64,000 nucleotides of DNA, taken from contig CAZYHP010000001.1 of NCBI GenBank assembly GCA_964647135.1, forward strand, positions 1,511 to 65,510, given 5' to 3'. The translations under genes and the position numbers were made by a program. The notes beneath the pieces are model-generated. The model saw only the letters and a list, made by a program, of their open reading frames with translations. It made no database searches and was not told the origin of the DNA. Positions 17,778 through 64,000 of the stretch are shown here, one piece after another. The number at the start of each line of letters is the position of its first letter. Positions within the stretch are counted from its first letter, which is position 1. Source of the DNA: an uncultured Rhodanobacteraceae bacterium. Lineage in GTDB: Bacteria; Pseudomonadota; Gammaproteobacteria; Xanthomonadales; UBA2363.

Positions 17778-17859
17778 GAGACTGGGCGGGCGGGCGGTGA
17801 CCCGTCGTGTAGGAAAGGCAAAGGAAGGGGATTGTCGCGGTTCGTGGCGAGCCGATCAA

Positions 17860-18204: not shown

Positions 18205-18220
18205 GGTTGGGCCGTCCCGC

Positions 18221-18355: not shown

Positions 18356-18530
18356 GGCGGCAGACCCAAGGTCGTCGGCAAAGGGCGGGCATTGTAGGCG
18401 CTGGTGCGGCGCCGGTCAAATGCACCCGTTCGCCGGCCCTCGCCACCGCCGCCGCGCAGGTACCCGGCAGGGCGCTGCAACCGGTTACACTGATCCACCG
18501 CATACGCGTTGTAACGAGAAACCGATCGCG

Positions 18531-19850: not shown

Positions 19851-19855
19851 GCGCT

Positions 19856-19974
19856 TGTGGATACACTGTGGCTGAAAGGCGGCGAAAAAGTTATGCACAG
19901 AGTCATCACACGCTGGCGAACCGGTTTGCGCACAGGTTTTTTTGATGCAAGCAATTGATTTGATTCAGAATTTG
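19856..19974. other. Candidate oriC core or dnaN regulatory region: DnaA-box-like 9-mers plus an AT-rich block
   Basis: TGTGGATAC (19856-19864; reverse complement GTATCCACA) and TTATGCACA (19891-19899) each have 1 mismatch to TTATCCACA. A 38-nt block at 19937-19974 (tttttttgatgcaagcaattgatttgattcagaatttg) has 10 G/C of 38 by hand count, in an otherwise very GC-rich genome. Confidence 0.4.
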
Positions 19975-20050
19975 CGGGTTGTTGAGGCGCCAGGAGGCCC
20001 TTAACAACAACAATCTTCAACAGACAAGAGCAACTAGTTGAGGTCTGCCC

Positions 20051-21151: not shown

Positions 21152-21171
21152 TTGAAACTCATGGTGACGCG

Positions 21172-22263: not shown

Positions 22264-22304
22264 TTAGTCCATCCCACCGCCGCGCGTCCCGCGGCAGGTA
22301 CTGA

Positions 22305-24731
<2,427 letters not shown>

Positions 24732-26425: not shown

Positions 26426-26426
26426 G

Positions 26427-27389: not shown

Positions 27390-27449
27390 AGCCTGGCAGG
27401 CGCTGTCATGGCGTTAGAATCGGGTCGTTCCGGCACAGGAGATGGCGAC

Positions 27450-28253: not shown

Positions 28254-28383
28254 TGCAAAAAGTTAAGGCAGCTTAACGCCAGTGCCTTCGCGACGCCTGA
28301 CAATAGACCATCCACGAAACCGGACGTAGCACGGGGCATGTCGACATGACCCGCCGCTTCCCCCGCCATCCAAAGGATTCACG

Positions 28384-43851: not shown

Positions 43852-44811
43852 ATGTTGACGACATCTTCCCGCCTCCTGCGCCTGCTTACCCTGCTGCAGG
43901 GCCGCCGCGACTGGTCCGGTCGCGGCCTTTCCGAAGCCTTGTCCGTCGACGTGCGGACCATCCGCCGCGACATCGACCGCCTGCGAGAGCTGGGCTACCG
44001 GATCGATGCGTCGGCTGGACAGGGCGGCGGTTACCGGCTCGGTGCCGGCCCGAACCTGCCGCCGGTGCTGCTGTCCGACGCCGAGGCGGTGACGGTGATG
44101 CTCGCCTTGCGCGCAGCCGCCCACAGCATGGCCGGCATGGACGCCAGCATCGCCGGCCTGCTGGCGAAACTGGAGAACCTGCTGCCGACCCGCCTGCAAC
44201 CGCAACTGCGTGCGGTGAACGCCGTGGCGCACGTGTTGCCGGCAGCCGGCGCACTGGCGGAGATCGAAGCGCTCGCCCTGATCGCGACGGCCTGTCGCGA
44301 CCATCGCCGCCTGCGCATGCGTTACAGCGATCGCCAGGGCCGCGAAACGCAGCGCGAGGTCGAACCGCTGCAGTTGATCCTCGCCGGGCGACGCTGGTAC
44401 CTCATCGCCTGGGATCGCCGCCGTGACGACTGGCGCAGTTTCCGTATCGACCGCGTCAGCGATCCGGAACTGCTGCCGGCGAAGTTCGAACCGCGGACTC
44501 TGCCTGAGGCGCCAGCGACATTCATCGCCAAGGCGCTGGCATCGGCGCCGTCACGCTACAGCCTGCGTCTGCGTCTGTCCGGCCGCTACGAAGACCTGGT
44601 CGATGTCGTCCCAGGCTGGTGCGGTCTGCTCGAACCGCTGGACGAACACAGCTGCAGCTTGCGCGCGGGTGCCGAAACACTGGCCGGCCTGGCGACGGCG
44701 CTGCTTTTCATCGGGAAGGATTTCCAACTCATCGACGATCCGCCCTGGCGAGGCGAGCTCCAGGCGCTGCTCGCGAAGGTCACCGCCGCCGTCGCAGCGC
44801 CCGGCCCATAG
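43852..44811 (+). CDS. YafY-type transcriptional regulator (HTH + WYL domain)
   Basis: 319 aa. The N-terminal HTH is RLLRLLTLLQGRRDWSGRGLSEALSVDVRTIRRDIDRLRELGYRI. The WYL core is REVEPLQLILAGRRWYLIAWDRRRDDWRSFRIDRV. Confidence 0.85.
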   Translation: MLTTSSRLLRLLTLLQGRRDWSGRGLSEALSVDVRTIRRDIDRLRELGYRIDASAGQGGGYRLGAGPNLPPVLLSDAEAVTVMLALRAAAHSMAGMDASIAGLLAKLENLLPTRLQPQLRAVNAVAHVLPAAGALAEIEALALIATACRDHRRLRMRYSDRQGRETQREVEPLQLILAGRRWYLIAWDRRRDDWRSFRIDRVSDPELLPAKFEPRTLPEAPATFIAKALASAPSRYSLRLRLSGRYEDLVDVVPGWCGLLEPLDEHSCSLRAGAETLAGLATALLFIGKDFQLIDDPPWRGELQALLAKVTAAVAAPGP

Positions 44812-44996
44812 CCGAACGCGGGCAGGCGCGCGAATATACTCTGCCGCACCGTCGCCGCGCGCCACGAAGGGAAAGGCATCGTGGTCGCCCGAACCATCCG
44901 CATCGACAACCTGGTCATCGCACCCCATCGCGGCAGCGAAGGGGTTCCCGCGTGCGCGAAGGCGGGGTCATTGCACGGTGCATTCAAGGAGGTTGA

Positions 44997-51314: not shown

Positions 51315-51956
51315 TCAGGGCGTGCCCGGCATCTCGATGGCGCGTGATGGTCCCGAGCACACCGCCGCGCCGACCAGATGATCGCCCAGGGGCAGCTCGG
51401 CGCAGGACCAGCGTGCGGCAGGCGCAGCCTCGCCGTCCAGATGCGCCAGACGAAGTCGGCCATCGGCACCGGGCTGGAAGCAGGCCCTGCCGAGGCCATA
51501 ACCCAGGCCGCGGCCGATGGCCTTGAACAGCGCTTCCTTCATCGTCCACAGGCGCAGGAAAGCGTGGTCGAGGTCGGGCTGGCCAGCCAGCCAGTCGACC
51601 TCCGCCGTCGGAAAATGCCGCCGCGCCAGTGACATCGCCTTCGGCCGCGGTTGCCGGATCTCCAGGTCGACGCCCAGGTCGGCACCCTCGACCAGGCCGA
51701 ACAGGTACCAGCCGCCACTGTCGCTGGGATTGAAGCCGAAGCGCTCGTACGGCGGCGGCAGAAACGGCTTGCCGTTGGCGCCGCGGCGCAGCGCTGACAG
51801 GTCCAGGCCGGGAAACGCCGCGAGCAGGTGGTCGCGGGTCGCGAGCGCGGCGGCACGCTTGCGCGCTTTCGCCGTTTCGATCACGCCAAGGCCGGCTTCG
51901 ACCGGCAGTGCCTGGCATCGGATCCGGATCGGTGGAAGCGCCGGCCTGTCCGTCAT
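51315..51956 (-). CDS. 4'-phosphopantetheinyl transferase (Sfp/EntD type)
   Basis: 213 aa. PPTase motifs are GKPFL, FNPSDSGG, GVDLE and WTMKEALFKAIG. The start overlaps the upstream gene's stop by ATGA (51953-51956). Confidence 0.8.
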   Translation of the reverse strand: MTDRPALPPIRIRCQALPVEAGLGVIETAKARKRAAALATRDHLLAAFPGLDLSALRRGANGKPFLPPPYERFGFNPSDSGGWYLFGLVEGADLGVDLEIRQPRPKAMSLARRHFPTAEVDWLAGQPDLDHAFLRLWTMKEALFKAIGRGLGYGLGRACFQPGADGRLRLAHLDGEAAPAARWSCAELPLGDHLVGAAVCSGPSRAIEMPGTP

Positions 51957-53140
51957 CGCGGCTGCAACTGGTAGCGCAGATCGGCGTCGAAACCGGAAAG
52001 GCGCGTCGTGTCCAGGCCGCGCGCCAGGGCCATCACCTGGAAGCGTTCGCCCATCTCGCCGGGCAGCATCAGCGTCTTCACCGCGCCGACGCGGTTCAAG
52101 CGGGCCGCGAAGGGCAATTGCTCCAGCGTCGCCAGATACCCCTGGATATCATTCCCGAGAAGGAATTGCGCCTGCGAGGTATAGCCGGCGACCTCGAGGC
52201 CGCAGGCCAGGGCCGCTTCCGCCACCGCGGTGAAATCGACGAAGGCGGTGATGTCCTGCAGTCCCGGCAGGTGCAGCGGATCGCCGTGGGCGTGATGGCG
52301 GTAGTGGCAGACCAGTGTGCCGTCCTGGCGCTCCGGGCTGTAGTACACCTGCCGCGGATAGCCGTAATCGACGAACAGCGCCAGTCCCTGCTGCAGCGAA
52401 CCCGTCAAGGCGGCGAGCCAGGGTTGCAGGCTCAGGTGCATTTCCGAGCGGTAGGGGCGCGGGAGCGTGTCGAGGTCGTCACCCAATCGCTGCTGGATCT
52501 GTCTCGCCAGCGCCGGCGACGCGGGCTGTTCCAGCCATTCGAATCGCTCCGGCCCGCCGCCGACGAACTGCTCGTGCAGGCCATCGTCACGCAGCGCGAA
52601 GCGTGTCGCCGGCAGCGCATCGATGACCTCGTTGGCGACCACGGCGCCGCGCCACGGCGACTGCGGCGGCTGGTCCAGCCAGTCGACGCGGTCGAGCAGC
52701 CCGGGACAGCGTTCGGCGATCCGCGCGCGCTGCCGTTCGCGCAGGTCGGCGCTGATTTCCAGCAGCCGGTAGCGGCGCGGCAGCGCGTCGCGTGCAGCCA
52801 GGGCCGCCAGCAGATCGACGGCCAGCGCGCCGCTGCCGCCGCCGACTTCCAGCAGGTCCCAATCTCCGCCGCCGTCACTCGCCATGGAATTGGCCAGGCA
52901 GTGTGTGAGGGCGTGCGCGAAGGCCGGGCCCAGCTCGGGCGCGGTGACAAAGTCGCCCTCGGCACCGAACTTGCGGCTGCCGGCGCTGTAGTAGCCCAGG
53001 CCTGGCGCGTACAACAGCAGCGCCATGAAGCGCGAAAAAGGCATCGGGCCCGTCCTGGCGATTTCGGCGGCAACGTGCGCGGAAAGGCGCCGGGAATGCG
53101 CGAGCGCGTCGGCTGGGGGTTCGGGAAGGCGGGCGGACAT
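51953..53140 (-). CDS. Class I SAM-dependent methyltransferase, MidA/NDUFAF7-like (COG1565)
   Basis: 395 aa. The N-terminus is MPFSRFMALLLYAPGLGYYSAG...FGAEGDFVTAPELGPAFAH. The SAM-binding segment is LLEVGGGSGALAVDLL. This is the typical layout of the family. Confidence 0.8.
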   Translation of the reverse strand: MSARLPEPPADALAHSRRLSAHVAAEIARTGPMPFSRFMALLLYAPGLGYYSAGSRKFGAEGDFVTAPELGPAFAHALTHCLANSMASDGGGDWDLLEVGGGSGALAVDLLAALAARDALPRRYRLLEISADLRERQRARIAERCPGLLDRVDWLDQPPQSPWRGAVVANEVIDALPATRFALRDDGLHEQFVGGGPERFEWLEQPASPALARQIQQRLGDDLDTLPRPYRSEMHLSLQPWLAALTGSLQQGLALFVDYGYPRQVYYSPERQDGTLVCHYRHHAHGDPLHLPGLQDITAFVDFTAVAEAALACGLEVAGYTSQAQFLLGNDIQGYLATLEQLPFAARLNRVGAVKTLMLPGEMGERFQVMALARGLDTTRLSGFDADLRYQLQPR

Positions 53141-53178
53141 GGTCGACGGCGGTGGTTCGGACCGGTAGCGTAGCGGAC

Positions 53179-53934
53179 ATGCCCCGACCCCAGCTCCACG
53201 ACGACCGCCCCGTCGCCCTCGTCACCGGCGCCGCGCGCCGCATCGGCGCGACCATCGCGCGAACGCTGCATGGCGCCGGCTACGACCTGGTCCTGCATTG
53301 CCACGCTTCGCTGCACGAGGCCGGGATGCTGCGCGACGAACTGCTGGCGGCGCGACCCGGCAGCGCCCTCGTCGTCAGCGCCAACCTCGCCGACGACACG
53401 GCGCCGACGCGGCTGGTCGACGCCGCGCTCGCGCAGTTCGGCCGTCTCGACGCGCTGGTCAACAATGCCAGCCGTTTCCGCCCGACCCCGCTGGGCACGA
53501 TCACCGCGGCGGACTGGGACGAGTTGTTCGCCAGCAATGCCCGCGCACCGCTGTTCCTCGCCCAGGCGGCGGCAGCGCAGCTGCGCGAGCGGGGTGGCGC
53601 CATCGTCAATCTCGTCGACATCTACGCCGAACGTCCGCTGCCGGACCATCCGGTCTACGTGATGGCGAAGGCGGCGCTGTCGGCGCTGACGCTGTCGTTG
53701 GCGCGCGATCTCGGCCCGGCCGTGCGCGTGAATGCCATCGCGCCCGGCGCCATCCTCTGGCCCGAGCAGCCGCCGCCGGACTACGGCAAGGAACGGCTGC
53801 TGGAAGCCACGGCCCTGAAGCGCAGCGGCACGCCGGAAGACATTGCCGGTGCCGTTCTCTACCTGCTGCGCGATGCCACCTACGTCACCGGCGAGATCCT
53901 GCGCGTCGACGGCGGGCGCTGGCTGTCGATCTGA
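53179..53934 (+). CDS. Short-chain dehydrogenase/reductase, pteridine-reductase-like
   Basis: The track ORF starts at GTG 53152; ATG 53179 gives MPRPQLHDDRPVALVTGAARRIG. Motifs are NNAS and the catalytic YVMAKAAL (YxxxK). The C-terminal TGEILRVDGG is typical. Confidence 0.8.
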   Translation: MPRPQLHDDRPVALVTGAARRIGATIARTLHGAGYDLVLHCHASLHEAGMLRDELLAARPGSALVVSANLADDTAPTRLVDAALAQFGRLDALVNNASRFRPTPLGTITAADWDELFASNARAPLFLAQAAAAQLRERGGAIVNLVDIYAERPLPDHPVYVMAKAALSALTLSLARDLGPAVRVNAIAPGAILWPEQPPPDYGKERLLEATALKRSGTPEDIAGAVLYLLRDATYVTGEILRVDGGRWLSI

Positions 53935-54010
53935 CCGCGGCGGGACACTTGGGTTAACCTGCCTGCCGATCCACACCTTGACCGGACCGGCGCGGTCCAC
54001 CGGGAGACCC

Positions 54011-55630
54011 ATGGCACAGGCAGACAGCGGGCGCATGCCCCGGCAGATCGGCTACATCATCGGCAACGAGGCGTGCGAGCGCTTCAGTTTCTACGGCATG
54101 CGCAACATCCTGGTGCCGTTCCTGATCAGTTCGGTGCTGCTGCAGTACCTGCCCGAGGGCGCCGACCGGGAAGCGATGGCCAAGGAGGTGTTCCACTCCT
54201 TCGTGATCGGCGTGTACTTCTTCCCGCTGCTGGGCGGCTGGCTGTCGGACCGGTTCTTCGGCAAGTACAACACCGTCCTCTGGTTCTCGCTCATCTACTG
54301 CGCCGGCCATGCCTGCCTGGCGATGTTCGAGGACAACCGCAACGGCTTCTACGCCGGCCTGTTCCTGATCGCGCTGGGCTCCGGCGGCATCAAGCCGCTG
54401 GTGGTGTCCTTCTGCGGCGACCAGTTCGACCAGACCAACAAGGACAAGGCGAAGCTGGTCTTCGACGGTTTCTACTGGATCATCAATTTCGGCTCCTTCT
54501 TCGCCTCGCTGTTCGCGCCATTGCTGCTGCGCCACTTCGGCCCGGCCGTCGCCTTCGGCATCCCCGGCGTGCTGATGTTCATCGCCACGCTGATCTTCTG
54601 GCTCGGCCGGCACCAGTACGTGAATGTGCCGCCGAGCGGGCCGGATCCGCACTCCTTCCTCAACGTGGTCAAGACCGCGCTGCGGCAACGCCGCCCGGGC
54701 GAAGGCAATCTCGGCGCCGTGGTGGCGTGGAGTGGCGTCGCCATCGCCGTGTTGATGCTCCTGCTCTGGGCCTTGAGCGTCGGCGGGGTGCAGGTGCCGG
54801 GTTGGCCGTCCTCGTTCGGCTTCGTGATCACCGCCTGCCTGGCGCTGGGTGTGCTGATCGCTTTCGGCGGCTGGGGAGCGTCGATGCAGCTGGAGCGTGC
54901 GCGCGGCCTGCATCCGGATGCCGCGGTCGACGGCGTGCGCGCGGTGTTGCGCATCCTGATCGTGTTCGCGCTGGTGACGCCGTTCTGGTCGCTGTTCGAC
55001 CAGAAGGCCTCGACCTGGATCATCCAGGGCAACGCCATGGTCATCCCGCATGACCAATGGTGGTGGCCGAGCTGGCTGATCCAGGAGCCGGCGCAGATGC
55101 AGGCGCTGAACCCGCTGCTGGTGATGTTGCTGATCCCGTTCAACAACCTGCTCCTGTATCCGGCGCTGCGCCGGATCGGCTTCAACCCCACCCCCCTGCG
55201 CCGCATGGGCTGGGGCATCGCCTTCTCGGGCGTGTCGTGGATCATCGCCGGCGCCCTGCAGCTGTGGATCGACAGTGGCGCCGAAGTGTCCCTGGCCTGG
55301 CAATCGCTGCCCTACCTGCTGCTGACGTTCGGCGAGGTACTGGTGTCGGCGACGGCGCTGGAGTTCGCCTACAGCCAGGCGCCGCATGCGATGAAGGGGG
55401 TGATCATGGCGTTCTGGTACCTGACCAGCACCTTCGGCAGCCTGTGGGTGCTGATCACCAATGCCGGCGTCCGCAATGCCGGCTTCCAGTCGGTGATCGC
55501 CGGCAGCGGACTGAGCGAACCGGCCTTCCTCATGTTCTTCTTCGCGGCGTTCGCCTTTGTCGCGGCGCTGGCCTTCGGCCTTTACGCCCGCCACTACCCG
55601 ATGCAGGACAACTACCGCATCGCCACCTGA
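54011..55630 (+). CDS. Proton-dependent oligopeptide transporter (POT/PTR2 family, MFS)
   Basis: Track ORF 53843..55630, trimmed to MAQADSGRMPRQIGYIIGNEACERFSFYGMRNIL. PTR2 signatures are GGWLSDRFFGKYNT and FYWIINFGSF. Confidence 0.9.
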   Translation: MAQADSGRMPRQIGYIIGNEACERFSFYGMRNILVPFLISSVLLQYLPEGADREAMAKEVFHSFVIGVYFFPLLGGWLSDRFFGKYNTVLWFSLIYCAGHACLAMFEDNRNGFYAGLFLIALGSGGIKPLVVSFCGDQFDQTNKDKAKLVFDGFYWIINFGSFFASLFAPLLLRHFGPAVAFGIPGVLMFIATLIFWLGRHQYVNVPPSGPDPHSFLNVVKTALRQRRPGEGNLGAVVAWSGVAIAVLMLLLWALSVGGVQVPGWPSSFGFVITACLALGVLIAFGGWGASMQLERARGLHPDAAVDGVRAVLRILIVFALVTPFWSLFDQKASTWIIQGNAMVIPHDQWWWPSWLIQEPAQMQALNPLLVMLLIPFNNLLLYPALRRIGFNPTPLRRMGWGIAFSGVSWIIAGALQLWIDSGAEVSLAWQSLPYLLLTFGEVLVSATALEFAYSQAPHAMKGVIMAFWYLTSTFGSLWVLITNAGVRNAGFQSVIAGSGLSEPAFLMFFFAAFAFVAALAFGLYARHYPMQDNYRIAT

Positions 55631-55721
55631 GTGCGCGGCTGCCCCGCACCCGCGGACCATCCACCGGTCCGCGGGCGCGGTGTACGATGCCGCCCTGTCC
55701 CCGCCGCCGATCCACACCCGC

Positions 55722-56735
55722 ATGGAAGCACCGAGCGCCGTCAATCCCCACCGAATCGCCGCCTGGGTGCTGGCCGGAATCGCGCTCTTCGTCGTCCTCC
55801 GCTTCGGTCTGCTGGTGCCGCTGCTGGCCGGACTGCTGGTCTTCCACCTGACGCATTCGCTGGCGCCGTTCATCGAGCGCCGCATCACGCCGCTGGGTCC
55901 GCGACTGATCGCCGTGACCCTGGTATCGATGCTGATCATCGGCTTGCTGACGCTCGGCATCGTCGGCCTGGTGGCGTACTTCCGTACGGATGCCGGATCG
56001 CTGCAGGGCCTGCTGGACCGCCTGATGGGAATCATCGACGACTCGCGCGGCCAGATTCCGGACTGGCTGCTGGCCTATCTGCCGGAGGACAGCTCGGCCA
56101 TGCGTCGCGCACTCGGCGAGTGGCTGACCAACCATCGCACCGAATTGAGCCTGGTCGGCGCCGAAGCGGTGCAGACCATCGTCCGGCTGCTGATCGGCAT
56201 GGTGCTGGGCGCGATGATCGCGCTGTATGACGAATTGCCCAACCAGTTCCTTGGCCCGCTCGGCCGCGAGATGGTGGGTCGCGCGAGTCGATTTGCCGAT
56301 GCCTTCCGCCGGGTCGTGTTCGCGCAGCTGAAGATCTCGCTGCTCAACACCTTCTTCACCGGCATCTTCCTGGCCGTGGTGCTGCCGGCGTTCGGCGTCC
56401 ACCTGCCACTGACAAAGACGCTGATCGTCGTCACCTTCGTGGCCGGCCTGCTGCCGGTCGTCGGCAACCTCATCTCGAACACGGTGATCACCATCGTCGG
56501 CCTGTCGGTGTCGTTCTACGTCGCCGTCGCGGCGCTGGCCTACCTGATCCTGATCCACAAGGTCGAGTACTTCCTCAACGCGCGCATCGTCGGCGGCGAG
56601 ATCCATGCCCGTGCCTGGGAGCTGCTGCTGGCGATGCTGACGATGGAAGCCATCTTCGGCATACCCGGCCTGGTCGCCGCACCGGTGTACTACGCCTACA
56701 TCAAGCGCGAACTGACGGACCAGGGCTGGGTCTGA
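55722..56735 (+). CDS. AI-2E family transporter (PerM/UPF0118)
   Basis: Track ORF 55557..56735, trimmed to MEAPSAVNPHRIAAWVLAGIALFVVL. It is multi-TM, and the conserved C-terminal region is GLLPVVGNLISNTVITIVGL...EAIFGIPGLVAAPVYYAY. Confidence 0.8.
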   Translation: MEAPSAVNPHRIAAWVLAGIALFVVLRFGLLVPLLAGLLVFHLTHSLAPFIERRITPLGPRLIAVTLVSMLIIGLLTLGIVGLVAYFRTDAGSLQGLLDRLMGIIDDSRGQIPDWLLAYLPEDSSAMRRALGEWLTNHRTELSLVGAEAVQTIVRLLIGMVLGAMIALYDELPNQFLGPLGREMVGRASRFADAFRRVVFAQLKISLLNTFFTGIFLAVVLPAFGVHLPLTKTLIVVTFVAGLLPVVGNLISNTVITIVGLSVSFYVAVAALAYLILIHKVEYFLNARIVGGEIHARAWELLLAMLTMEAIFGIPGLVAAPVYYAYIKRELTDQGWV

Positions 56736-56752
56736 GCCGCGCCGCCCCGTTG

Positions 56753-58198
56753 ATGGCCCACACGCAGCAGCCCGCCCTGTTCACGGTCGTGCCCGGCGGA
56801 CTGTTCGGTCCGCTGGCCTCGCCCAACCGCGCGCACTACTGGCTGCTGCTGTGCCGGCTCTTCGACGAGTTCTTCGGACCCGATGCGCCGCTGCCGCCCA
56901 GCAACGGCCTGCCGCGCCGCGAAATCACGGCGGCGCTGGAGCGCTACCTGCTTGCCGACGACCCCTGGGAAGCCGAGGACGGCGATGCGCCCGACACGCC
57001 CATCGCGGTGCGCGCCGGCCACATCTATGAGCGTTTCCGCAATGCCGGCTGGCTGCGCCAGGAGCGCATCGGCGCCCGCGAGATGGTCAGCATGGCGCCG
57101 CTGGTGGCGCAGCTGCTGTCGACACTGATCGAATTCGCCGAACACGGCCCCACCTTTGTCTCGGCGCGCATGCGTTCGGTGGAGCTGCAGTTGCAGCAGG
57201 TCGTCGAAGGCCGCGCCGCCGGCGATGCACTGGATGAAGCCGCCGACCAGGCGCGTCGCCTGCTGGTGTCGCTGTCGTCGATGAGCCTGACCGTGCGCGA
57301 CCTGATGCCGCAGCTCACCCGAGCAGAAACCACGGCGCAGTTCGCGCGCGAGTGGTTCGAGCGCTATGTCGGCGAATTCTTCATCGGCGACTACGCCGAC
57401 CTGCATCGCGCCGACCATCCGCTGGCGCGGCGCAGCGCGATCCTGGCGATGACCCGGCAGATCGAGTCCGGAGATCGTGGCGACGCGTTGCTGGCGTGGT
57501 ACGCCGACCACCATGGTGACGCCGACCGTGGCGCGCAGCGCTTCGCACGCAGCCTGCGCCGCCTGCGCGAGCTGGATCGCATCGACGAGTATCTCGAACG
57601 CCTGGACGACGACATCCGCCAGGCCAATCGCCGCGCCCTGGCTTTCCTCGACTACCGTCTGCGTGCACCGGCGCGCCTGGATACGCTGCTGCGACGCGCC
57701 GCCCGCGGCGCGCTGGCGGCGGCGCCCGGTAAGCTGCGTCTGCCGGTGGCCAGCGGTGGCCTGATGGATGCCGACCGTCTGCGCGCGCCACGCACGCGCC
57801 CGACCCCGATTCCGCGCAGCGCCAACGCGACGACACCGCCGACGCCGGAACAGCTGGCGCGGCTCGCACTGCTGCGCCGCATGAAGCGCGCGCGCCTGGT
57901 CACCGCCGAGGACATGGCCGGCTATGTCGGCCGCCACCTGGCCGACCGCGCCGAAATCGATAGCGACGTACTCTCGATCCAGTCCATTCCCGACCTGCGC
58001 GCCTACCAGACATTGCTGACGCTGGCGCTGCGTGGTCGACGCGTCGGCGGTCTGCGCCGCGACGATCCCCTCGGCCGCCTGCTGCGCGGCTTCCGCGTCG
58101 AGCTGCTGGATGACAACGAACGCAGCGACAGCGACTGGCTGCGCGGACCGCGCTTCATCCTCCGCCGCGTCGGCACCCAGACCCGGACACCCGCATGA
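56753..58198 (+). CDS. jetA: Wadjet JetA-like (MksF/kleisin-like, DUF3375-type) subunit
   Basis: 481 aa from ATG 56753 (the track start 56750 is TTG). It is first of four coupled genes. The N-terminus is PALFTVVPGGLFGPLASPNRAHYWLLLCRLFDEFFG. Size and position match type I JetA. The assignment comes from operon architecture plus sequence character, not from a search. Confidence 0.7.
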   Translation: MAHTQQPALFTVVPGGLFGPLASPNRAHYWLLLCRLFDEFFGPDAPLPPSNGLPRREITAALERYLLADDPWEAEDGDAPDTPIAVRAGHIYERFRNAGWLRQERIGAREMVSMAPLVAQLLSTLIEFAEHGPTFVSARMRSVELQLQQVVEGRAAGDALDEAADQARRLLVSLSSMSLTVRDLMPQLTRAETTAQFAREWFERYVGEFFIGDYADLHRADHPLARRSAILAMTRQIESGDRGDALLAWYADHHGDADRGAQRFARSLRRLRELDRIDEYLERLDDDIRQANRRALAFLDYRLRAPARLDTLLRRAARGALAAAPGKLRLPVASGGLMDADRLRAPRTRPTPIPRSANATTPPTPEQLARLALLRRMKRARLVTAEDMAGYVGRHLADRAEIDSDVLSIQSIPDLRAYQTLLTLALRGRRVGGLRRDDPLGRLLRGFRVELLDDNERSDSDWLRGPRFILRRVGTQTRTPA

Positions 58199-58842
58199 AA
58201 CGAAGCTGGAACACCCTGAGCCAGCAATCCAATGGCGCCTGGTCCGTACAGGACTTCGAGCGCGCCGCCTATCGCCTCGTCACCGAGCAGGTGCTGTCGG
58301 CCGGCGAACGCAGTACGCGCCTGGCCTATCACCTGGTCGAAGACCATTTCGACGACTTCGTCGCCGCGCTGGCGCCGCTGGGCGTGCGCCTGGAACGCAA
58401 CGCGCACTACCGCCATGTCGTCGCGCTGCCGACGCACGGCGAGGGCACGCCGGTGTCGCTGGCGGAAACGTTGCTGCTGCTGGTGCTGCGGCAGCGTTAC
58501 GACGTGGCGATGCGTGAAGGCCTGATCGAAGAGGACGGCCTGGTCACGATCGAGCTGCCCGACCTGCAGGAAGCGTATCCACAGCTGACGGGGCGGCCCA
58601 TGCCGGACGTCGGCCAACTGCGCGAGCTCGGGCGCAGCCTGCGCCGCTGGGGCGTGTGCCGCCTCGTGGACGCCGACAACGACGATCCGCAGCCGTTCCA
58701 TCTGCAGGTGCGCCCCGCCATCGTCGAGATCATCGGCGAGCAGTGGCTGCAGCGACTCGACCAGCACTTCCGCGGCGACGACGAGGAGGACGACGTGTCC
58801 GACACGGCGGCCGTCGCAGGGGATGACGATGCAAAGGCTTGA
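58195..58842 (+). CDS. jetB: Wadjet JetB-like (MksE/KITE-like, DUF4194-type) subunit
   Basis: 215 aa. It overlaps jetA by ATGA. The size is typical of type I JetB, with an acidic C-terminal tail (GDDEEDDVSDTAAVAGDDDAKA). Confidence 0.7.
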   Translation: MKRSWNTLSQQSNGAWSVQDFERAAYRLVTEQVLSAGERSTRLAYHLVEDHFDDFVAALAPLGVRLERNAHYRHVVALPTHGEGTPVSLAETLLLLVLRQRYDVAMREGLIEEDGLVTIELPDLQEAYPQLTGRPMPDVGQLRELGRSLRRWGVCRLVDADNDDPQPFHLQVRPAIVEIIGEQWLQRLDQHFRGDDEEDDVSDTAAVAGDDDAKA

Positions 58843-61800
58843 GCGCGTCCATCTGGTGCAGTTCTTCCTGTTCGAGGCGCAGACGCTGGAACTGGACCGC
58901 ACCAGCGCCGTGATTGCGCCGAACGGCGCCGGCAAGAGCGCCCTGCTCGATGCGCTGCAGATCGTCCTGCTGGGCGGCGACCGCAGCCGAATCCGCTTCA
59001 ACGCACAGGCGGGCGGCAGCGCGCGGGCACGCAGCATCCGCGACTATTGCCTGGGCGTGTATCGCAGTGGCGACGATGGAAGGAAGCGGCGCACGGCGAC
59101 GACCTACCTCTCGCTGGTGTTCCGCGACGAGGACAGCGGCGTGCCGCTGACGGCCGGCATCGCACTGGCCGCGTCGGTGGATGAGCCCGAACACCGCGTG
59201 CACGGCCTGTACCTGCTGCCCGGTGTGGCGCTCGAGCTCGACGACCATCTTGAACAGGTCAACGACCGCACCTTGCCGCTGGCCTGGGCGACCTTCCGCG
59301 AACAGGCATCGCGTCGCTGCAAGGCGGCCGGGACGACACTGGAACTGCACAGTGTCGCCGAGCGCTTCGTGAAGGACCTGCTGTTCCGCCTGCGCGCCAC
59401 GCCGACCGCGAATCCCGACGTCAACGCCTACCGCAAGGCCTTCCTCAATGCGTTGAACCTGCAGCGCGTCGATGATGTCGACCTGTTCGTCCGCGACCTC
59501 GTCGCCGAGAACCGGCCGACCGACATCGCCCGTTTCCGCTCGCTGCTGGAGAGTTTCCGGCAGATCCGCGACCGCATCGAGCAGGTGCGCCAGCGCATCG
59601 AGGCGGCGGAGGGTGCCGAGAAGCAGTACGAGCGCATCGCCGGCCAGGCGGTGCGCGCCGCGTCGTATCGCGCCCTCGCCGCGGAATATACGCGCGACCT
59701 CTACGGCGAACAGATCGAAACCGCGGAAGCCGACGTCGAGACGGCCCGCGAGATGCTGGCGCGCACGCGTCGCGAGCTGACGGAAGCGCGCAGCGAACGC
59801 GAGCGCCTGCGTGATGAACTCGAGCGCGGTACCGCGCAACTCGCCGGCCATGGCGGCTACGGCGAGCAGGCACGGTTCGAGGAAGTGGCCGGCCGCGATC
59901 GCGAGCGACTGACGCAGATCCGCGGCGAGCTGCTGCGCGAAATCGCGGCGGTCAGTGACCGCCTGGGCACACTGCCCGCCCTCGATGGCGTCGATCCAGC
60001 GATGCTGGCCGAGGCACGTCGGCCGTGGACGCAGTGGTACGCGGCGCTCAATCGCGAGGCCGCTGACGAACCCCTTCCCTGGTTGCCGGAAGACTTCTAC
60101 GAAGCGGCACGGACGGCGCTGCGCGCGGCACGGCCGCTGGTCGAACAGCTCGAGTCTGCCGCGCGCCGCCTTCACGCCGAACTGGAACAGGCCCGCGCAC
60201 GTGCGCAGGCGGCGCGCGCCAATCATGGCCGTCTTTCCGCTGGCCAGGCGGAACTGGCGCCGGATGTCGTGCGCCTGATGAACTATCTGCGCGACGAAGG
60301 CATCGACGCGCGCCCGGTCTGTGATCTCGTGCGCGTGCGCGATCCCGCCTGGCAGCGCGCCATCGAGGCCTACCTGCGCAGCAATGTCGAGGCGCTGCTG
60401 ATTCCCGTCGAACACGAGGAAAAGGCGACACGCCTGTACCGCAGCCTGCGCGATGGGCGCGCCGTCTATGGCGTCAAGCTGGCGCTGTCGAGCCACGCCC
60501 GCGGCGGTCGTCGCGACGAGCCCGCGTCCGGCACCGTCGCCGCATTGCTCGAGGGTCTCAATGACGACGCCCTCGCCTTCCTGCGCCGCCAGCTCGGCGA
60601 CCTGCGCTGCGTCGACAGCGATGCCGAACTGCTGCGCACGCGCCAGGGCCTGAGTGCCGACGGCGTGCTCGCCAAGGGCGGCAGCATCGAACGCCTGCGC
60701 CTGCCGGCCATCGGCGAGTTGAAGATCGGTGCCGCCGACAACCGCGATCGCCTGCGCGTGCTGCGCCAGGACATGGATCGTGCCGAGGCCGACATCCGCC
60801 GCCTCGAACCGCTGGTACGTGCCCTGGACGGCCATCATCGCGGCCTGTCGCGACTGGCGCAGGGCGACGAGCTGGCGCAGGCGCTGCATGCACGCGTGCT
60901 CGAACATCACGATGTCGCGCAGCGCCTGCGCAGCAGCCGTGACACGGCCGCCGCATCGGCGGATCCGGACCTGCTTCGGCTGGCGGAACAGGTGCGCGAA
61001 CTGCGCGGCGAGCGTGACGCCGCCGAACAGCGCGTCGAGGCACTGGTCGGTCGCGAGGCGGTGGCCGACGGCCGCCTCACCAGGCTGGTCGAGATGCTCG
61101 ATGCCCTGCGCGCGCAGGAAGAGCTCATCGCCCGCAAGGCCGTGCAGGCCTTCGCCGATCCCGATGTCGATCCCAATCGCGTCGAGCGGCAGCGCGAGGA
61201 CATGGACGACCGCTTCGCGACGCTGGAGGAACGGCGCCAGCACTGCGAGTCGCGCGCCGACGAATCCGACCGGCGGCTGGCGCACCTGCTGCCCGAAGCC
61301 TGGAGCGTGCTGTCGCAGTACGCGCGCGACCACGGCCTGGACCTGGAACTGGAGACCCACGACTGGCGCCGCGCCCGCACGCTGCTGCGGCGTGAGCTGG
61401 CGCAGCTGCGCGACACCGACCTGGTGCGTTACCAGGCCGATGCCGACCGCGCCTACGACACCGCCGTCGAGACCTTCCGTGCCAGTGTCGCCGCGACGCT
61501 CAACGACAACTTCGTCCGTCTCAAGAGCCAGATCGCCACGCTCAACCGCACACTGCGCGCCAGCCCTGCGTTCTCGAACAACGAGCGCTACCAGTTCCAC
61601 TACGAAGTGGTGCCGGAGTTCCGCGAGCTGGAACGCTTCATCCGCCGCGCCGCCGACGTCGGCAGCGAGGACAACCTGTTCGGCAGCGCCGGCGAGGTGC
61701 CGGCGGCGTTCCGCGAACTGATCGAGGACACTGTCGCGGCGCGTTCAACCCCTTCGCCACTGGACGACTACCGGCGCTTCTTCCGCTTCGAGGTGCAGAT

Positions 61801-62251
61801 CCGCCAGGACGAGGAAGTGATCGGCACGCTCAGTGAGCGCATGCGTTCCGGTTCCGGTGGCGAACACCGCGCACCGCTCTACGTGATCGCCGGCGCCGCG
61901 CTGGCCGCCGCCTACGGCAAGAGCGAGGCGCAACCGGGCGGTTTGGGCCTGATCCTGCTCGACGAGTTCGGCGACAAGATCGACGCCCAGAACGCGCGCG
62001 CGACCACCAACTACCTGCGTTCGCTGGGCCTGCAGCTGCTGCTGGCCGCGCCGGACACCGCACAGGGCACGCTCAGCGGTGTACTCGACAGCTACATCGA
62101 ACTGTTCCGCGACGGCGACCTGTTGCAGGTCGAACGCATCGAGGTCAAGGATCCCGCACGCGCGCTGCTGCTGTCGGACCAGTTCGACCTGCATCCCGAA
62201 CTCCTGGCCGAGGAAACCGCGCGCATCGAGCGCGAGCTGGGCTTGCAATGA
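58823..62251 (+). CDS. jetC: Wadjet JetC-like SMC-family ABC ATPase (MksB-like)
   Basis: 1142 aa. The alternative start ATG 58829 has a better-spaced AGGGGA Shine-Dalgarno. Walker A is APNGAGKS (58919-58939). About 900 aa of Arg/Glu/Leu/Ala-rich coiled-coil-type sequence follows, then an SGGE signature-like motif and Walker B LILLDEF (61949-61969). Confidence 0.85.
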   Translation: MTMQRLERVHLVQFFLFEAQTLELDRTSAVIAPNGAGKSALLDALQIVLLGGDRSRIRFNAQAGGSARARSIRDYCLGVYRSGDDGRKRRTATTYLSLVFRDEDSGVPLTAGIALAASVDEPEHRVHGLYLLPGVALELDDHLEQVNDRTLPLAWATFREQASRRCKAAGTTLELHSVAERFVKDLLFRLRATPTANPDVNAYRKAFLNALNLQRVDDVDLFVRDLVAENRPTDIARFRSLLESFRQIRDRIEQVRQRIEAAEGAEKQYERIAGQAVRAASYRALAAEYTRDLYGEQIETAEADVETAREMLARTRRELTEARSERERLRDELERGTAQLAGHGGYGEQARFEEVAGRDRERLTQIRGELLREIAAVSDRLGTLPALDGVDPAMLAEARRPWTQWYAALNREAADEPLPWLPEDFYEAARTALRAARPLVEQLESAARRLHAELEQARARAQAARANHGRLSAGQAELAPDVVRLMNYLRDEGIDARPVCDLVRVRDPAWQRAIEAYLRSNVEALLIPVEHEEKATRLYRSLRDGRAVYGVKLALSSHARGGRRDEPASGTVAALLEGLNDDALAFLRRQLGDLRCVDSDAELLRTRQGLSADGVLAKGGSIERLRLPAIGELKIGAADNRDRLRVLRQDMDRAEADIRRLEPLVRALDGHHRGLSRLAQGDELAQALHARVLEHHDVAQRLRSSRDTAAASADPDLLRLAEQVRELRGERDAAEQRVEALVGREAVADGRLTRLVEMLDALRAQEELIARKAVQAFADPDVDPNRVERQREDMDDRFATLEERRQHCESRADESDRRLAHLLPEAWSVLSQYARDHGLDLELETHDWRRARTLLRRELAQLRDTDLVRYQADADRAYDTAVETFRASVAATLNDNFVRLKSQIATLNRTLRASPAFSNNERYQFHYEVVPEFRELERFIRRAADVGSEDNLFGSAGEVPAAFRELIEDTVAARSTPSPLDDYRRFFRFEVQIRQDEEVIGTLSERMRSGSGGEHRAPLYVIAGAALAAAYGKSEAQPGGLGLILLDEFGDKIDAQNARATTNYLRSLGLQLLLAAPDTAQGTLSGVLDSYIELFRDGDLLQVERIEVKDPARALLLSDQFDLHPELLAEETARIERELGLQ

Positions 62252-63465
62252 GTCGGCCGCAAGCGCCGGATGACTCACCGGCATTGCGCTTCCTTGGGCG
62301 GCTGCTGGCGCGCGTCGACGCGGCCGCGATCCGACACGGCGGCGTCGTGGTCAGTGTTCCTATGTCGACGGCCAGCGCGCCGGAATACCACGCAGCGCGC
62401 ACCTTGGCGGAGCGCGAGGAATTCCATGCGGTAATCGCACTCGCCGAGCGCGCCGGTGCGGTAACCGTGTGCAGCGAGGGCCACCGGGACGATCCCGGAT
62501 TACTTCGGGTGACCGTGGCCGATACGCAGGCGCTGGCCTCGTTTCTGGGCAGGAAGACCCTGCGCCAACAGGTGGAAGCCGCCGGAACGGCGCTCGCCAG
62601 TGCAGCGTCCAGATTCCCCGTCATTGAAGTCGTGCTTTCACGGTGGGCGAAGGGAAAGACCGTGCGAGGCAGACGCACCGAGGCGGCCGTTGATCTTGCA
62701 GATGCCGCGCGGGTGGTTGATGCAGGTCTTCGCGAATGCGGGCCTGAACGCCTCCTCCGGCGCGAGAGCATCCGCCTGTTCGGCGACAGCAAACGAGTCG
62801 AGGCGTTGACGCCGTGGCTGGAAGTCCTGCTGACGGGCGAACTGGGTGCCACCGGCCTGGACGATGCCCAGATCTGGTCGGCATTGGGCTTGCGCAAGCA
62901 ACCGCAGCCCTTGCTCCTGGCGGGCGCGGCAACACTGGAACTGGTTGACGGACTTCACATCGATCTTGTTCGCCCCTACCTGGGCATCGCGCCCGAATCA
63001 CTGTGTGCCATCGACACGGCGGCACGGCACCTAATCAGCGTCGAAAACCTTGCCAGCTTCCACGACTTGGCGCTGTCCGCCGAGGAGCGCAGCGTCGTCA
63101 TCGCCTACACCGGCGGAATGCCATCGCCTGTGTGGCGGGAGGCCTACCGGCGTCTGCTCCAGAGCCTGTCTGACGACGCCCGGGTGCTGCATTGGGGTGA
63201 CATCGATGAGGGCGGCTACCGCATAGCGGCCGTGCTGGCCCAGACAGCGGCAACAGTCGGAAGGACACTCGAGCCGTGGCTGATGTCGCCCTCGGATCTC
63301 CCAGAGACGGTGCGCGCGGGTGCTTCAGTACCTTCAACCGCCACCCGGAACGCCATGCAACATTGGGCGCGTCGCGCCGGATGGGAAGATATCGCAGCAA
63401 CGCTGATCGAACAGTGTGTCGTATGCGAGCAGGAGGCCTTGCCGGCAATCTTTCCGGGAGAATGA
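62248..63465 (+). CDS. jetD: Wadjet JetD-like Toprim-domain nuclease subunit (MksG-like)
   Basis: 405 aa. It overlaps jetC by ATGA. The C-terminal half has ISVENLASF (Glu266, nt 63043-63045) and VLHWGDIDEGGYRI (Asp318/Asp320, nt 63199-63207). This is the E...DxD arrangement of Toprim/topo-VI-A-like JetD C-terminal domains. Confidence 0.8.
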   Translation: MSRPQAPDDSPALRFLGRLLARVDAAAIRHGGVVVSVPMSTASAPEYHAARTLAEREEFHAVIALAERAGAVTVCSEGHRDDPGLLRVTVADTQALASFLGRKTLRQQVEAAGTALASAASRFPVIEVVLSRWAKGKTVRGRRTEAAVDLADAARVVDAGLRECGPERLLRRESIRLFGDSKRVEALTPWLEVLLTGELGATGLDDAQIWSALGLRKQPQPLLLAGAATLELVDGLHIDLVRPYLGIAPESLCAIDTAARHLISVENLASFHDLALSAEERSVVIAYTGGMPSPVWREAYRRLLQSLSDDARVLHWGDIDEGGYRIAAVLAQTAATVGRTLEPWLMSPSDLPETVRAGASVPSTATRNAMQHWARRAGWEDIAATLIEQCVVCEQEALPAIFPGE

Positions 63466-63841
63466 CCGTCCACCGACCACGCCGCGAGGTATGGATGCCG
63501 CGGTAACGAGGGGCGCCGTTTGCGTGGCGCAAATTCGCAGGCGGACGGCAGTCTCGCCACAGCCGGCTTGAAAGATTCTTCCGCGACGCGTAAGCGATGA
63601 AGACGTAGCGCTTGCTTTGGTGGCCGCGTGTCGCGAGCACGACAATGCCAGCATGAGACCGGCTTCCCGTCGGCGGCGTCCGTCCTGGAACGTACTTCGG
63701 AGCGAGCCGTCGACGTCATGTTGCGGCAATAGAGCGCCGTCGACATTCCGCCCGGTCGCCCGTCATCGACGGCGCGGTGAACACGGAACCGTGCTCTCCG
63801 GACGCAAATCCAAACATTCAGAAGAGCGTCCTATCCTCTGC

Positions 63842-64000
63842 TCACGTCGTTCCACCTGTTAGACTGCGCGCACCGGCCACGGCGAGCGCCAGCCAGCCGA
63901 GGATGAAGGCGACCCCGCCGGTCGGGACGATATGGCGCAGGCCGCCAGCGCCGAGTGACGGCCACCACAGGTGCAGCACATAGATGCCGACCGAGAAGCA
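63842..64000 (-). CDS. DUF423 (YgdD-like) small membrane protein, C-terminal 52 codons; the gene continues past the window end
   Basis: Not in the ORF track because it runs off the edge. My translation is ...CFSVGIYVLHLWWPSLGAGGLRHIVPTGGVAFILGWLALAVAGARSLTGGTT*. The P-x-GG-V-x-F-x-x-GW-x-x-L ending matches my recollection of E. coli YgdD. GC3-rich. Confidence 0.6.
   Translation of the reverse strand, partial: CFSVGIYVLHLWWPSLGAGGLRHIVPTGGVAFILGWLALAVAGARSLTGGTT

What the first reader, a model, noticed from the sequence alone, without database searches (positions are those of the whole stretch)
56753..63465. Complete four-gene Wadjet-like (JetABCD / MksBEFG-type) SMC-plus-Toprim operon
Four same-strand genes are translationally coupled, with ATGA overlaps at 58195-58198 and 62248-62251 and a 20-nt overlap at 58823-58842.
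- A is 481 aa.
- B is 215 aa and ends in an acidic tail.
- C is 1142 aa. It has an N-terminal P-loop APNGAGKS (58919-58939), about 900 aa of coiled-coil-type Arg/Glu/Leu/Ala-rich sequence, then SGGE and Walker B LILLDEF (61949-61969).
- D is 405 aa. Its C-terminal half has a Toprim-like catalytic layout, ISVEN (Glu at 63043-63045) and WGDIDEGG (DxD at 63199-63207).
Gene order, sizes and motifs fit type I Wadjet: kleisin-like JetA/DUF3375, KITE-like JetB/DUF4194, SMC-like JetC and the Toprim nuclease JetD. Wadjet is a defence system known to sense and cleave circular plasmid DNA. This is the strongest candidate for a discrete 'system' in the window. The A and B assignments rest on architecture and my recollection of family character, not on a search, so a divergent or novel variant cannot be excluded.
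Basis: partly seen in the sequence, partly recalled or inferred. Interest (0 to 1): 0.85.

Follow-up and report, generated by a model that had tools for sequence, protein, structure and literature searches.

The report
Ordinary type I Wadjet plasmid-defence operon

Summary

All four proteins match the type I Wadjet models of PADLOC over their full length: JetA1 5e-224, JetB1 4e-90, JetC1 E=0, JetD1 5e-134. They also pass the Pfam cut-offs for JetA, DUF4194/JetB, SbcC_Walker_B and JetD_C.

A confident JetD model has the CAP-plus-Toprim fold of MksG, topoisomerase VI-A and P. aeruginosa JetD. A moderate JetB model has the fold of E. coli and P. aeruginosa JetB and of MukE.

Catalytic residues are intact. 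These are the JetC Walker A, signature motif and Walker B E1048, and JetD E266, D318xD320 and E394xE396.

The genes are under purifying selection against the syntenic operon of Pseudofulvimonas gallinarii, where NCBI already names JetD as Wadjet.

One correction: JetA belongs to PF18982, not DUF3375.

The mechanism is inferred from characterised homologues, not shown here: ATP-driven loop extrusion by a JetABC dimer, stalling on small circular DNA, then JetD cleavage.

The only mild point of interest is that this Lysobacterales clade gives no sequence hit to any solved Wadjet. It is a known kind, and interest is low.

The parts
56753..58198 (+). jetA: kleisin subunit, 481 aa. An in-frame TTG lies at 56750.
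   Evidence: Pfam PF18982 JetA scores 6.6e-48 over model positions 13-433 of 434. PADLOC JetA1 PDLC00456 scores 5.3e-224 over 5-479 of 482. It is 93% identical to the P. gallinarii orthologue, with dN/dS 0.11. The kleisin role is taken from the literature on the family. It was not tested structurally here.
58195..58842 (+). jetB: KITE subunit with tandem winged-helix domains, 215 aa. It has an invariant N-terminal segment and a disordered acidic C-terminal tail.
   Evidence: Pfam DUF4194 scores 5.1e-20; a precomputed Pfam hit table calls the same accession, PF13835, JetB. PADLOC JetB1 PDLC00498 scores 4e-90. The AF2 model has pLDDT 73 and two helix-helix-helix-strand-strand units. Foldseek finds E. 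coli JetB 8as8_C at 5.2e-08, P. aeruginosa JetB 8dk1 at 3.8e-07, then MukE and Nse1/3. M1-S12 and D20-F-E-R23 are invariant in 25 homologues. Residues 191-215 have pLDDT below 50.
58823..62251 (+). jetC: SMC-family ABC ATPase, 1142 aa. An alternative start lies at 58829.
   Evidence: PADLOC JetC1 PDLC00513 scores E=0 and 1560 bits over 1-1135 of 1140. Pfam gives AAA_29 at 1.5e-09 on the N-terminus and SbcC_Walker_B at 5.1e-18 on residues 982-1066. TIGR02168 SMC_prok_B aligns residues 427-874 at 4e-16 but far below its cut-off. dN/dS is 0.10.
58916..58939 (+). JetC Walker A (P-loop), APNGAGKS, residues 32-39
   Evidence: The residues are invariant in the three-sequence alignment A2.
60311..60493 (+). 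JetC hinge-like core, about residues 497-557, within a globular segment at about 480-640 that splits the two coiled-coil arms
   Evidence: Pfam SMC_hinge scores E 7.4e-4 and 20.3 bits, just under its cut-off of 22.5, when the segment 470-660 is scanned alone. The composition profile shows fewer helix formers and more Pro/Gly here.
61853..61864 (+). JetC ABC signature motif, SGGE, residues 1011-1014
61949..61969 (+). JetC Walker B, LILLDEF, residues 1043-1049. The catalytic Glu is E1048, taken here (position in the Walker B motif, not an alignment) to correspond to E1022 of E. coli GF4-3 JetC.
   Evidence: The E1022Q mutant of E. coli JetC abolishes restriction.
62248..63465 (+). jetD: nuclease effector, 405 aa. 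[quoted passage not shown]
   Evidence: PADLOC JetD1 PDLC00529 scores 4.9e-134 over 5-393 of 394. Pfam JetD_C PF09983 scores 7.9e-14, and DUF3322 is sub-threshold. The AF2 model has pLDDT 92.3. Foldseek finds MksG 8b7f at 4e-11, topoisomerase VI-A 1d3y at 6.5e-08, P. aeruginosa JetD 7til at 2.2e-07 and the Spo11 core 8urq. It is 91% identical to the protein NCBI names 'Wadjet anti-phage system protein JetD domain-containing protein' in P. gallinarii.
63043..63045 (+). JetD Toprim catalytic Glu, E266, in ISVEN at the C-terminal end of strand 261-265
   Evidence: It is invariant in 34 homologues, and its strand position comes. By its place in the Toprim fold (not by alignment) it corresponds to E248 of E. 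coli JetD, E197 of topoisomerase VI-A and E236 of MksG, all required for cleavage.
63199..63207 (+). JetD Toprim DxD metal-binding motif, D318-I-D320, immediately after strand 312-316
   Evidence: It is invariant in 34 homologues. By its place in the Toprim fold (not by alignment) it corresponds to D290/D292 of E. coli JetD and D249/D251 of topoisomerase VI-A.
63427..63435 (+). JetD C-terminal E394-Q-E396, likely the conserved pair of glutamates proposed as alternative nucleophiles in JetD and MksG
   Evidence: It is invariant in 34 homologues. The literature statement concerns MksG E349/E351. The equivalence is inferred from position and was not shown by a residue-level superposition.

Best explanation
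This is an intact chromosomal type I Wadjet (JetABCD) plasmid-restriction system of a Pseudofulvimonas-like gammaproteobacterium (order Lysobacterales).

Shown here
- The four proteins belong to the JetA, JetB, JetC and JetD type I families.
- The ATPase and Toprim catalytic residues are intact.
- JetD and JetB have the expected folds.
- The genes are under purifying selection.

Inferred from characterised type I homologues (E. coli GF4-3, P. aeruginosa PA14, C. glutamicum)
1. Two JetC dimers, each closed by a JetA kleisin carrying a JetB dimer, are joined through the JetA N-termini into a dimer of SMC motors.
2. The complex loads on DNA without sequence preference and extrudes loops using ATP.
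3. On a small circular molecule, extrusion runs to completion and the two motors stall against each other. They hold a sharply bent residual DNA segment.
4. This state recruits or opens the JetD dimer. Its Toprim sites (E266, D318xD320, divalent metal) cut both strands and linearise the plasmid.
5. The linearised plasmid is then lost.
6. Chromosomes are too large to be fully extruded, and linear DNA lets the motor run off the end, so both are spared.
For: Family membership
- Full-length PADLOC type I hits were found for all four proteins.
- Pfam hits above the gathering score were found for JetA, DUF4194/JetB, AAA_29 with SbcC_Walker_B, and JetD_C.

Gene organisation
- The order is A-B-C-D with overlapping stop and start codons.

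Folds
- The JetD model (pLDDT 92) shows the Toprim topology, in which strand 261-265, helix 268-276, strand 283-287, helix 294-306, strand 312-316, helix 321-335 and strand 341-343 follow in order. The Glu and the DxD sit at strand ends.
- Its best PDB matches are MksG, topoisomerase VI-A, JetD and Spo11.
- The JetB model matches solved JetB, then MukE and Nse KITE proteins.

Conservation
- E266, D318, D320, E394 and E396 are invariant across 34 JetD homologues.
- The Walker A, signature and Walker B motifs are present.
- dN/dS is 0.10-0.30 against the syntenic P. gallinarii operon, similar to neighbouring housekeeping genes at 0.09-0.22.

Distribution
- The cassette sits in unrelated chromosomal neighbourhoods in Luteimonas, Dokdonella and another Lysobacteraceae genome. 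This fits a horizontally moving defence cassette.

Mechanism, from the literature
[quoted passage not shown] Cleavage needs ATP and the Walker B residue, and JetD E248 (10.1101/2022.10.04.510915).
- Single-molecule work shows loop extrusion, then stalling, then cleavage (PMC10889018).
- MksG is a metal-dependent nuclease (PMC10123090).
Against: - Nothing here measures activity. Function is transferred from homologues that are very distant in sequence.
- No PDB chain, including solved Wadjet subunits (8as8, 8dk1, 7til and 8b7f are in the structure library used), is found by phmmer or by profile searches. This held at E<=0.01 for single-sequence JetA, JetB and JetD, E<=1e-4 for single-sequence JetC, E<=1 for the JetD and JetC profiles, and E<=10 for the JetA and JetB profiles.
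- Structural identity to solved JetD and JetB is only 16-19%.
- Global TM-scores are low, at 0.3-0.45. For JetD this is plausibly due to the flexible two-domain arrangement, and for JetB to a moderate model (pLDDT 73).
- JetA and JetC were not modelled, and the SMC_hinge hit is just below threshold.
- No promoter or terminator was identified.
Confidence: 0.9

Rival explanations
1. The complex is an MksBEF-type condensin whose main job is chromosome organisation or segregation, with the fourth gene playing an accessory role. It would not be a plasmid-restriction system.
For: - JetABC is architecturally close to MukBEF and MksBEF.
- The operon lies about 37 kb from dnaA, in the origin-proximal part of the chromosome. 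Its position is conserved between two Pseudofulvimonas genomes.
Against: - All four proteins hit Wadjet type I models best and over their full length.
- A JetD nuclease with invariant catalytic residues is encoded in the same overlapping operon and is under purifying selection.
- The cassette lies at unrelated positions in other genera. This fits a mobile defence cassette rather than a core chromosome function.
- JetD is described as exclusive to the JET family. All four subunits are required for plasmid restriction in the tested systems.
Confidence: 0.04
2. The system is mainly an anti-phage defence, as the NCBI product name 'Wadjet anti-phage system protein' suggests.
For: - NCBI names the homologues this way.
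- Many phages have circular replication intermediates, which could in principle be substrates.
Against: E. coli JetABCD had no obvious effect on plaque formation by T4, T6, T7, P1 or lambda, matching what was previously found for B. subtilis. The reviews read here describe Wadjet as an anti-plasmid system.
Confidence: 0.04
3. The operon is a decaying or silenced remnant that is no longer active.
For: - No recognisable sigma-70 promoter or terminator was found.
- jetD has a lower GC3 (0.72 against 0.85) and a higher dN/dS (0.30) than jetABC.
Against: - All four reading frames are intact. Their lengths match those in P. gallinarii, except that JetB is one residue shorter there.
- All catalytic motifs are intact.
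- dN/dS is well below 1 for every gene.
Confidence: 0.02

Closest known systems
Type I Wadjet / JET nuclease of E. coli GF4-3 (JetABCD; PDB 8as8, 8bfn)
   Same: - The gene order is the same, jetA-B-C-D.
- The four protein families are the same (PADLOC type I models).
- The JetB fold is the best structural match (8as8_C, 5.2e-08).
- The motif-position counterparts of the mutated residues JetC E1022 and JetD E248/D290/D292 are present, as E1048 and E266/D318/D320.
   Different: - Sequence similarity is too low for phmmer or small profiles to detect. Structural alignment gives about 17% identity for JetB.
- The spacing from the Glu to the DxD is 52 residues here, as in topoisomerase VI-A, against 42 in E. 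coli JetD.
- No activity data exist for this clade.
Type I Wadjet of Pseudomonas aeruginosa PA14 (JetABC 8dk1/8dk2, JetD 7til)
   Same: Both the JetD and the JetB models match the PA14 structures (7til at 2.2e-07, 8dk1 at 3.8e-07). The domain plan is the same, with JetD as arm/CAP plus Toprim and JetB as tandem winged helices.
   Different: - Identity is 16-17%.
- The 'IFDR' motif of the type I JetB N-terminus, reported to contact JetD, is not present literally. This clade instead has an invariant MKRSWNxLSQxS N-terminus and an invariant D-F-E-R at residues 20-23. Whether either is the equivalent was not tested.
MksBEFG of Corynebacterium glutamicum (MksG, PDB 8b7f)
   Same: MksG is the single best structural match of JetD (4e-11, 19% identity, 407 aligned columns spanning both domains). 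Both have the DUF3322-like N-terminal domain and the DUF2220/JetD_C Toprim domain.
   Different: The DUF3322 match is below threshold here. The Toprim tyrosine Y258 proposed as catalytic in MksG is reported as not conserved in JetD, and its equivalent was not examined here.
MukBEF / MksBEF condensins
   Same: These share the SMC, kleisin and KITE architecture. MukE is the next-best fold match for JetB after the solved JetB structures.
   Different: They have no Toprim nuclease subunit, and their function is chromosome organisation. Sequence hits to the MukB N-terminal Pfam model are marginal (E 0.0093, below cut-off).

Membership tests
Wadjet type I (JetABCD) | Four-gene operon in the order jetA-jetB-jetC-jetD on one strand | tested here: met
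   The four ORFs have overlapping stops and starts at 58195-58198, 58823-58842 and 62248-62251. The same order is found in the related loci L003 and L004. L001 and L002 run off their contigs within jetC.
Wadjet type I (JetABCD) | JetA of the type I kleisin family (Pfam PF18982 JetA; DUF5716 in PADLOC's description) | tested here: met
   PF18982 scores 6.6e-48 and 163.8 bits against a cut-off of 26.2, covering 13-433 of 434. PADLOC JetA1 scores 5.3e-224. No DUF3375 hit was found.
Wadjet type I (JetABCD) | JetB is a DUF4194 / MukE-like KITE protein with tandem winged-helix domains | tested here: met
   DUF4194 scores 72.3 bits against a cut-off of 32.7. JetB1 scores 4e-90. The AF2 model best matches solved JetB (8as8_C, 8dk1), then MukE and Nse. 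The model is of only moderate confidence (pLDDT 73).
Wadjet type I (JetABCD) | JetC is an SMC-family ABC ATPase with Walker A, signature motif and Walker B split between the N- and C-terminal head halves | tested here: met
   The motifs are APNGAGKS (32-39), SGGE (1011-1014) and LILLDEF (1043-1049). AAA_29 and SbcC_Walker_B score above their cut-offs. JetC1 scores 1560 bits over its full length.
Wadjet type I (JetABCD) | JetC has long antiparallel coiled-coil arms joined by a central hinge dimerisation domain, which distinguishes SMC from Rad50-like proteins with a zinc hook | tested here: inconclusive
   SMC_hinge scores E 7.4e-4 and 20.3 bits, under its cut-off of 22.5, at residues 497-557. 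TIGR02168 aligns across residues 427-874. The composition is consistent. The full-length JetC1 profile match implies homology through this region. No structure was predicted, and no CxxC hook is visible in the sequence.
Wadjet type I (JetABCD) | [quoted passage not shown] | tested here: met
   JetD_C scores 51.8 bits against a cut-off of 22. JetD1 scores 4.9e-134. The AF2 model (pLDDT 92) shows Toprim topology. Foldseek finds MksG, topoisomerase VI-A, JetD and Spo11. E266, D318 and D320 are invariant in 34 homologues.
Wadjet type I (JetABCD) | Type I rather than type II or III | tested here: met
   All top PADLOC hits are models numbered 1 and cover the full length. JetC2 models score at best 4.6e-13 on about 110 residues, and JetD3 models score 1e-3 or worse. 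TIGR02680 is far below its cut-off, at 33.5 against 462.85 bits. I recall TIGR02680 as the type II JetC model, from my own knowledge.
Wadjet type I (JetABCD) | ATP-dependent restriction and cleavage of small circular DNA that requires all four subunits | not testable with these tools
   This is known for E. coli GF4-3, P. aeruginosa, B. cereus-derived and C. glutamicum systems. An experiment is needed for this locus.
Wadjet type I (JetABCD) | The JetABC complex assembles as a dimer of motor units through the JetA N-terminal winged-helix domain and helical bundle, and JetD docks on the JetC larynx and the JetB N-terminal helix | not tested
   No complex prediction was available. The invariant JetB N-terminus (residues 1-12, helix 5-11 in the model) is a candidate JetD-binding helix.
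Lamassu / Rad50-SbcC-like / Gabija (other SMC-like or Toprim defence systems) | Full-length match to LmuB, SbcC or the OLD-family GajA, with the corresponding partner genes | tested here: not met
   LmuB, PtuA and similar models match only about 50 residues around the P-loop (E 6e-9 to 2e-5). No OLD/GajA model was listed for JetD, and the partner genes are JetA and JetB.

The most novel reading that the evidence does not exclude
The Lysobacterales clade of type I Wadjet, to which this operon belongs, is far from every characterised Wadjet in sequence. No hit to any solved structure was found, and structural alignments give 16-19% identity.

Its nuclease subunit also evolves faster than the motor. 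JetD is 51% identical between genera, against 74% for JetA and JetB. Its dN/dS is 0.30, against about 0.10 for JetA, JetB and JetC.

This could reflect functional differences, such as another size limit, a different metal requirement, a different JetB-JetD docking motif, or escape from plasmid-encoded anti-Wadjet factors. A second role tied to its conserved origin-proximal position is also possible.
Probability: 0.08. Interest if true: 0.4.

Novelty: already known. Interest (0 to 1): 0.12.

Why it matters
The practical value is annotation. The host, a Pseudofulvimonas-like bacterium, probably resists transformation with small circular plasmids. Anyone trying to engineer it should delete jetABCD or use linear or very large vectors.

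The locus also adds one more intact type I Wadjet from a clade (Lysobacterales) with no experimentally studied representative. Such a clade could serve as a distant comparison point for which features of the loop-extrusion and cleavage mechanism are universal.

It does not open a new question.

Tried and rejected
- **PDB sequence searches.** Single-sequence searches with all four proteins, and profile searches with alignments A1-A4, found no Wadjet chain. Only chance-level P-loop and coiled-coil hits appeared. Structure comparison was needed instead.
- **NCBIfam.** It has no model that A, B or D reach, and C gives only sub-threshold SMC/Rad50/RecF hits.
- **Mobile-element borders.** I looked for them around the operon. 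The window has no tRNA genes and no Rfam families. No meaningful direct or inverted repeats flank 56.7-63.5 kb. Integration by a recognisable element is therefore not supported.
- **Promoter and terminator scan.** It found nothing above the shuffled expectation.
- **Defence island.** The immediate neighbours are a POT peptide transporter, an SDR, a methyltransferase, a BNR-repeat protein, and DUF423 and glyoxalase genes downstream. None hits PADLOC, so this was rejected.
- **Plasmid origin.** The window carries dnaA-dnaN-recF-gyrB, and plasmid records hold only relatives below 33% identity, so this was rejected.
- **dN/dS error.** A first calculation for jetB used a wrong frame in L004 and gave nonsense. 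It was redone with a codon alignment.

Full report
**1. Observation**

The region holds four + strand ORFs: 56753-58198 (481 aa, with an in-frame TTG at 56750), 58195-58842 (215 aa), 58823-62251 (1142 aa) and 62248-63465 (405 aa). The ATGA overlaps at 58195-58198 and 62248-62251 and the 20-nt B/C overlap are as described.

The motif coordinates are right:
- PNGAGKS is at 58919-58939.
- SGGE is at 61853-61864.
- LILLDEF is at 61949-61969.
- JetD E266 is at 63043-63045.
- D318-I-D320 is at 63199-63207.

JetB ends in an acidic tail. The window is 65-70% G+C, so long spurious ORFs are common. These four, however, have a coding-type GC3 of 0.85 for A, B and C and 0.72 for D. They are also conserved with dN/dS well below 1.

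Minor corrections:
- The Arg/Ala/Leu/Glu-rich middle of JetC is not one 900-aa coiled coil. A globular hinge-like segment at about residues 480-640 interrupts it.
- JetC may start at the second ATG, at 58829.

**2. What it is**

Profile searches settle the identity.

| Protein | Pfam | PADLOC, full length |
|---|---|---|
| A | PF18982 JetA, 6.6e-48 | JetA1, 5.3e-224 |
| B | DUF4194, 5.1e-20 | JetB1, 4e-90 |
| C | AAA_29 and SbcC_Walker_B | JetC1, E=0, 1560 bits |
| D | JetD_C, 7.9e-14 | JetD1, 4.9e-134 |

Type II and III models score far worse, and only on fragments. NCBIfam has no model for A, B or D.

**3. Structure**

No solved Wadjet chain is found by sequence, even with profiles. The clade is therefore remote from the characterised systems, and I tested the folds instead.

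JetD was modelled from 34 homologues, giving pLDDT 92.3.
- It has an N-terminal helical/CAP part and a C-terminal domain of alternating strands and helices with Toprim topology.
- E266 sits at the end of the first strand, and D318xD320 sits just after the third.
- Foldseek against the PDB gives MksG 8b7f (4e-11), topoisomerase VI-A 1d3y (6.5e-08), P. aeruginosa JetD 7til (2.2e-07) and the Spo11 core complex.
- E266, D318, D320, E394 and E396 are invariant.
- By motif position, the first three correspond to residues whose mutation abolishes cleavage in E. coli JetD and MksG. The last two probably correspond to the conserved glutamate pair discussed for JetD and MksG.

JetB was modelled from 25 homologues, giving pLDDT 73.
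- It shows two winged-helix-like units.
- It best matches E. coli JetB 8as8_C (5.2e-08) and P. aeruginosa JetB 8dk1, then MukE and Nse1/3.

For JetC, the mid segment gives a near-threshold SMC_hinge hit. JetA and JetC were not modelled.

**4. Context**

JetD is 91% identical and JetA 93% identical to proteins of Pseudofulvimonas gallinarii DSM 21944. That genome is colinear with the window from 51336 to 64000 at 89% nucleotide identity. The window therefore comes from a close relative, and the operon sits in the same place in both.

The window is chromosomal and origin-proximal. The cluster mnmE-yidC-rnpA / dnaA-dnaN-recF-gyrB lies at 14.7-24.7 kb.

The immediate neighbours look like housekeeping genes, and none hits PADLOC:
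- upstream, a POT transporter, an SDR, a methyltransferase and a 337-aa membrane protein;
- downstream, DUF423, glyoxalase and DPP-IV-like genes.

In Luteimonas, Dokdonella and another Lysobacteraceae genome, the same cassette has entirely different neighbours. This is typical of a horizontally moving defence cassette.

No tRNA, Rfam element or flanking repeat marks an insertion. No promoter or terminator consensus was found, and jetA begins 17 nt after the upstream gene.

**5. Selection**

| Gene | dN/dS against P. gallinarii |
|---|---|
| jetA | 0.11 |
| jetB | 0.12 |
| jetC | 0.10 |
| jetD | 0.30 |
| neighbouring genes | 0.09-0.22 |

The system is maintained. JetD diverges fastest between genera, at 51% identity to the Luteimonas copy against 74% for JetA and JetB and 68% for JetC.

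**6. Mechanism**

The mechanism is inferred and was not shown here.

From the literature on type I systems:
- On small circular DNA, extrusion completes. The motors stall and hold a bent DNA segment, and the JetD dimer kinks and cuts it.
- Linear DNA and very large molecules escape.

All sequence features needed for this are present in the window.

**7. Comparison and novelty**

This is a member of type I Wadjet by every feature that could be tested. The hinge is supported only indirectly, and activity is untestable here. Standard pipelines (PADLOC, and NCBI naming in the sister species) already recognise it.

The only mildly notable points are:
- the large sequence distance from all solved Wadjets;
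- the faster evolution and lower GC3 of jetD;
- the absence of a literal IFDR motif in JetB, which instead has an invariant N-terminal dodecapeptide and an invariant DFER.

**Verdict**

Noticed in passing
window 14696-24731: The chromosomal replication-origin gene cluster is here: mnmE (14696-16060, -), yidC (16086-17777, -), rnpA (17860-18204, -), dnaA (18132-19850, +), dnaN (20051-21151, +), recF (21148-22263, +) and gyrB (22311-24731, +). G+C dips to 0.63 at 20-24 kb. The Wadjet operon therefore lies about 37 kb from dnaA.
   Followed up: partly
window 43852-47174: A WYL-domain HTH regulator (43852-44811, +) matches PADLOC WYL at 9e-52. It is followed on the same strand by a 725-aa ORF (44997-47174) with no Pfam or PADLOC hit. 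WYL regulators often control defence genes, so this pair could be an uncharacterised defence candidate.
   Followed up: no
window 62248-63465 (jetD) compared with 56753-62251: jetD has a clearly lower GC3 (0.72) than jetA, jetB and jetC (0.85). Against P. gallinarii its dS is lower (0.15 against 0.31-0.41) and its dN/dS is higher (0.30). The same GC3 drop is seen in P. gallinarii. JetD is also the least conserved subunit between genera.
   Followed up: partly
window 58195-58842 (JetB residues 1-23 and 191-215): The first 12 residues (MKRSWNxLSQxS) and D20-F-E-R23 are invariant in 25 homologues, which is unusually strict for an N-terminus. This may be the clade's version of the JetD-binding 'IFDR' helix of type I JetB. 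The acidic C-terminal tail is conserved in character but not in sequence, and it is predicted to be disordered.
   Followed up: partly
window 55722-56735: A 337-aa multi-pass membrane protein lies directly upstream of jetA, with a 17-nt gap. It has no Pfam or PADLOC hit. It is 95% identical to its P. gallinarii counterpart, with dN/dS 0.085. It may share a transcript with jetA.
   Followed up: partly
window 24884-29691: A same-strand cluster follows gyrB: a 7TM protein fused to an inactive transglutaminase, a sugar-transfer-associated ATP-grasp enzyme, an M48 peptidase and a TPR protein. This looks like a conserved peptide-modification or ATP-grasp module of unknown role.
   Followed up: no
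window 63466-63870: About 400 nt after jetD has no convincing ORF and a lower G+C. A small hairpin (GCGCCGTTTGCGTGGCGC, about 63513-63530) is the only terminator-like feature. A convergent DUF423 membrane-protein gene follows on the - strand, identified from the P. gallinarii locus L004.
   Followed up: partly
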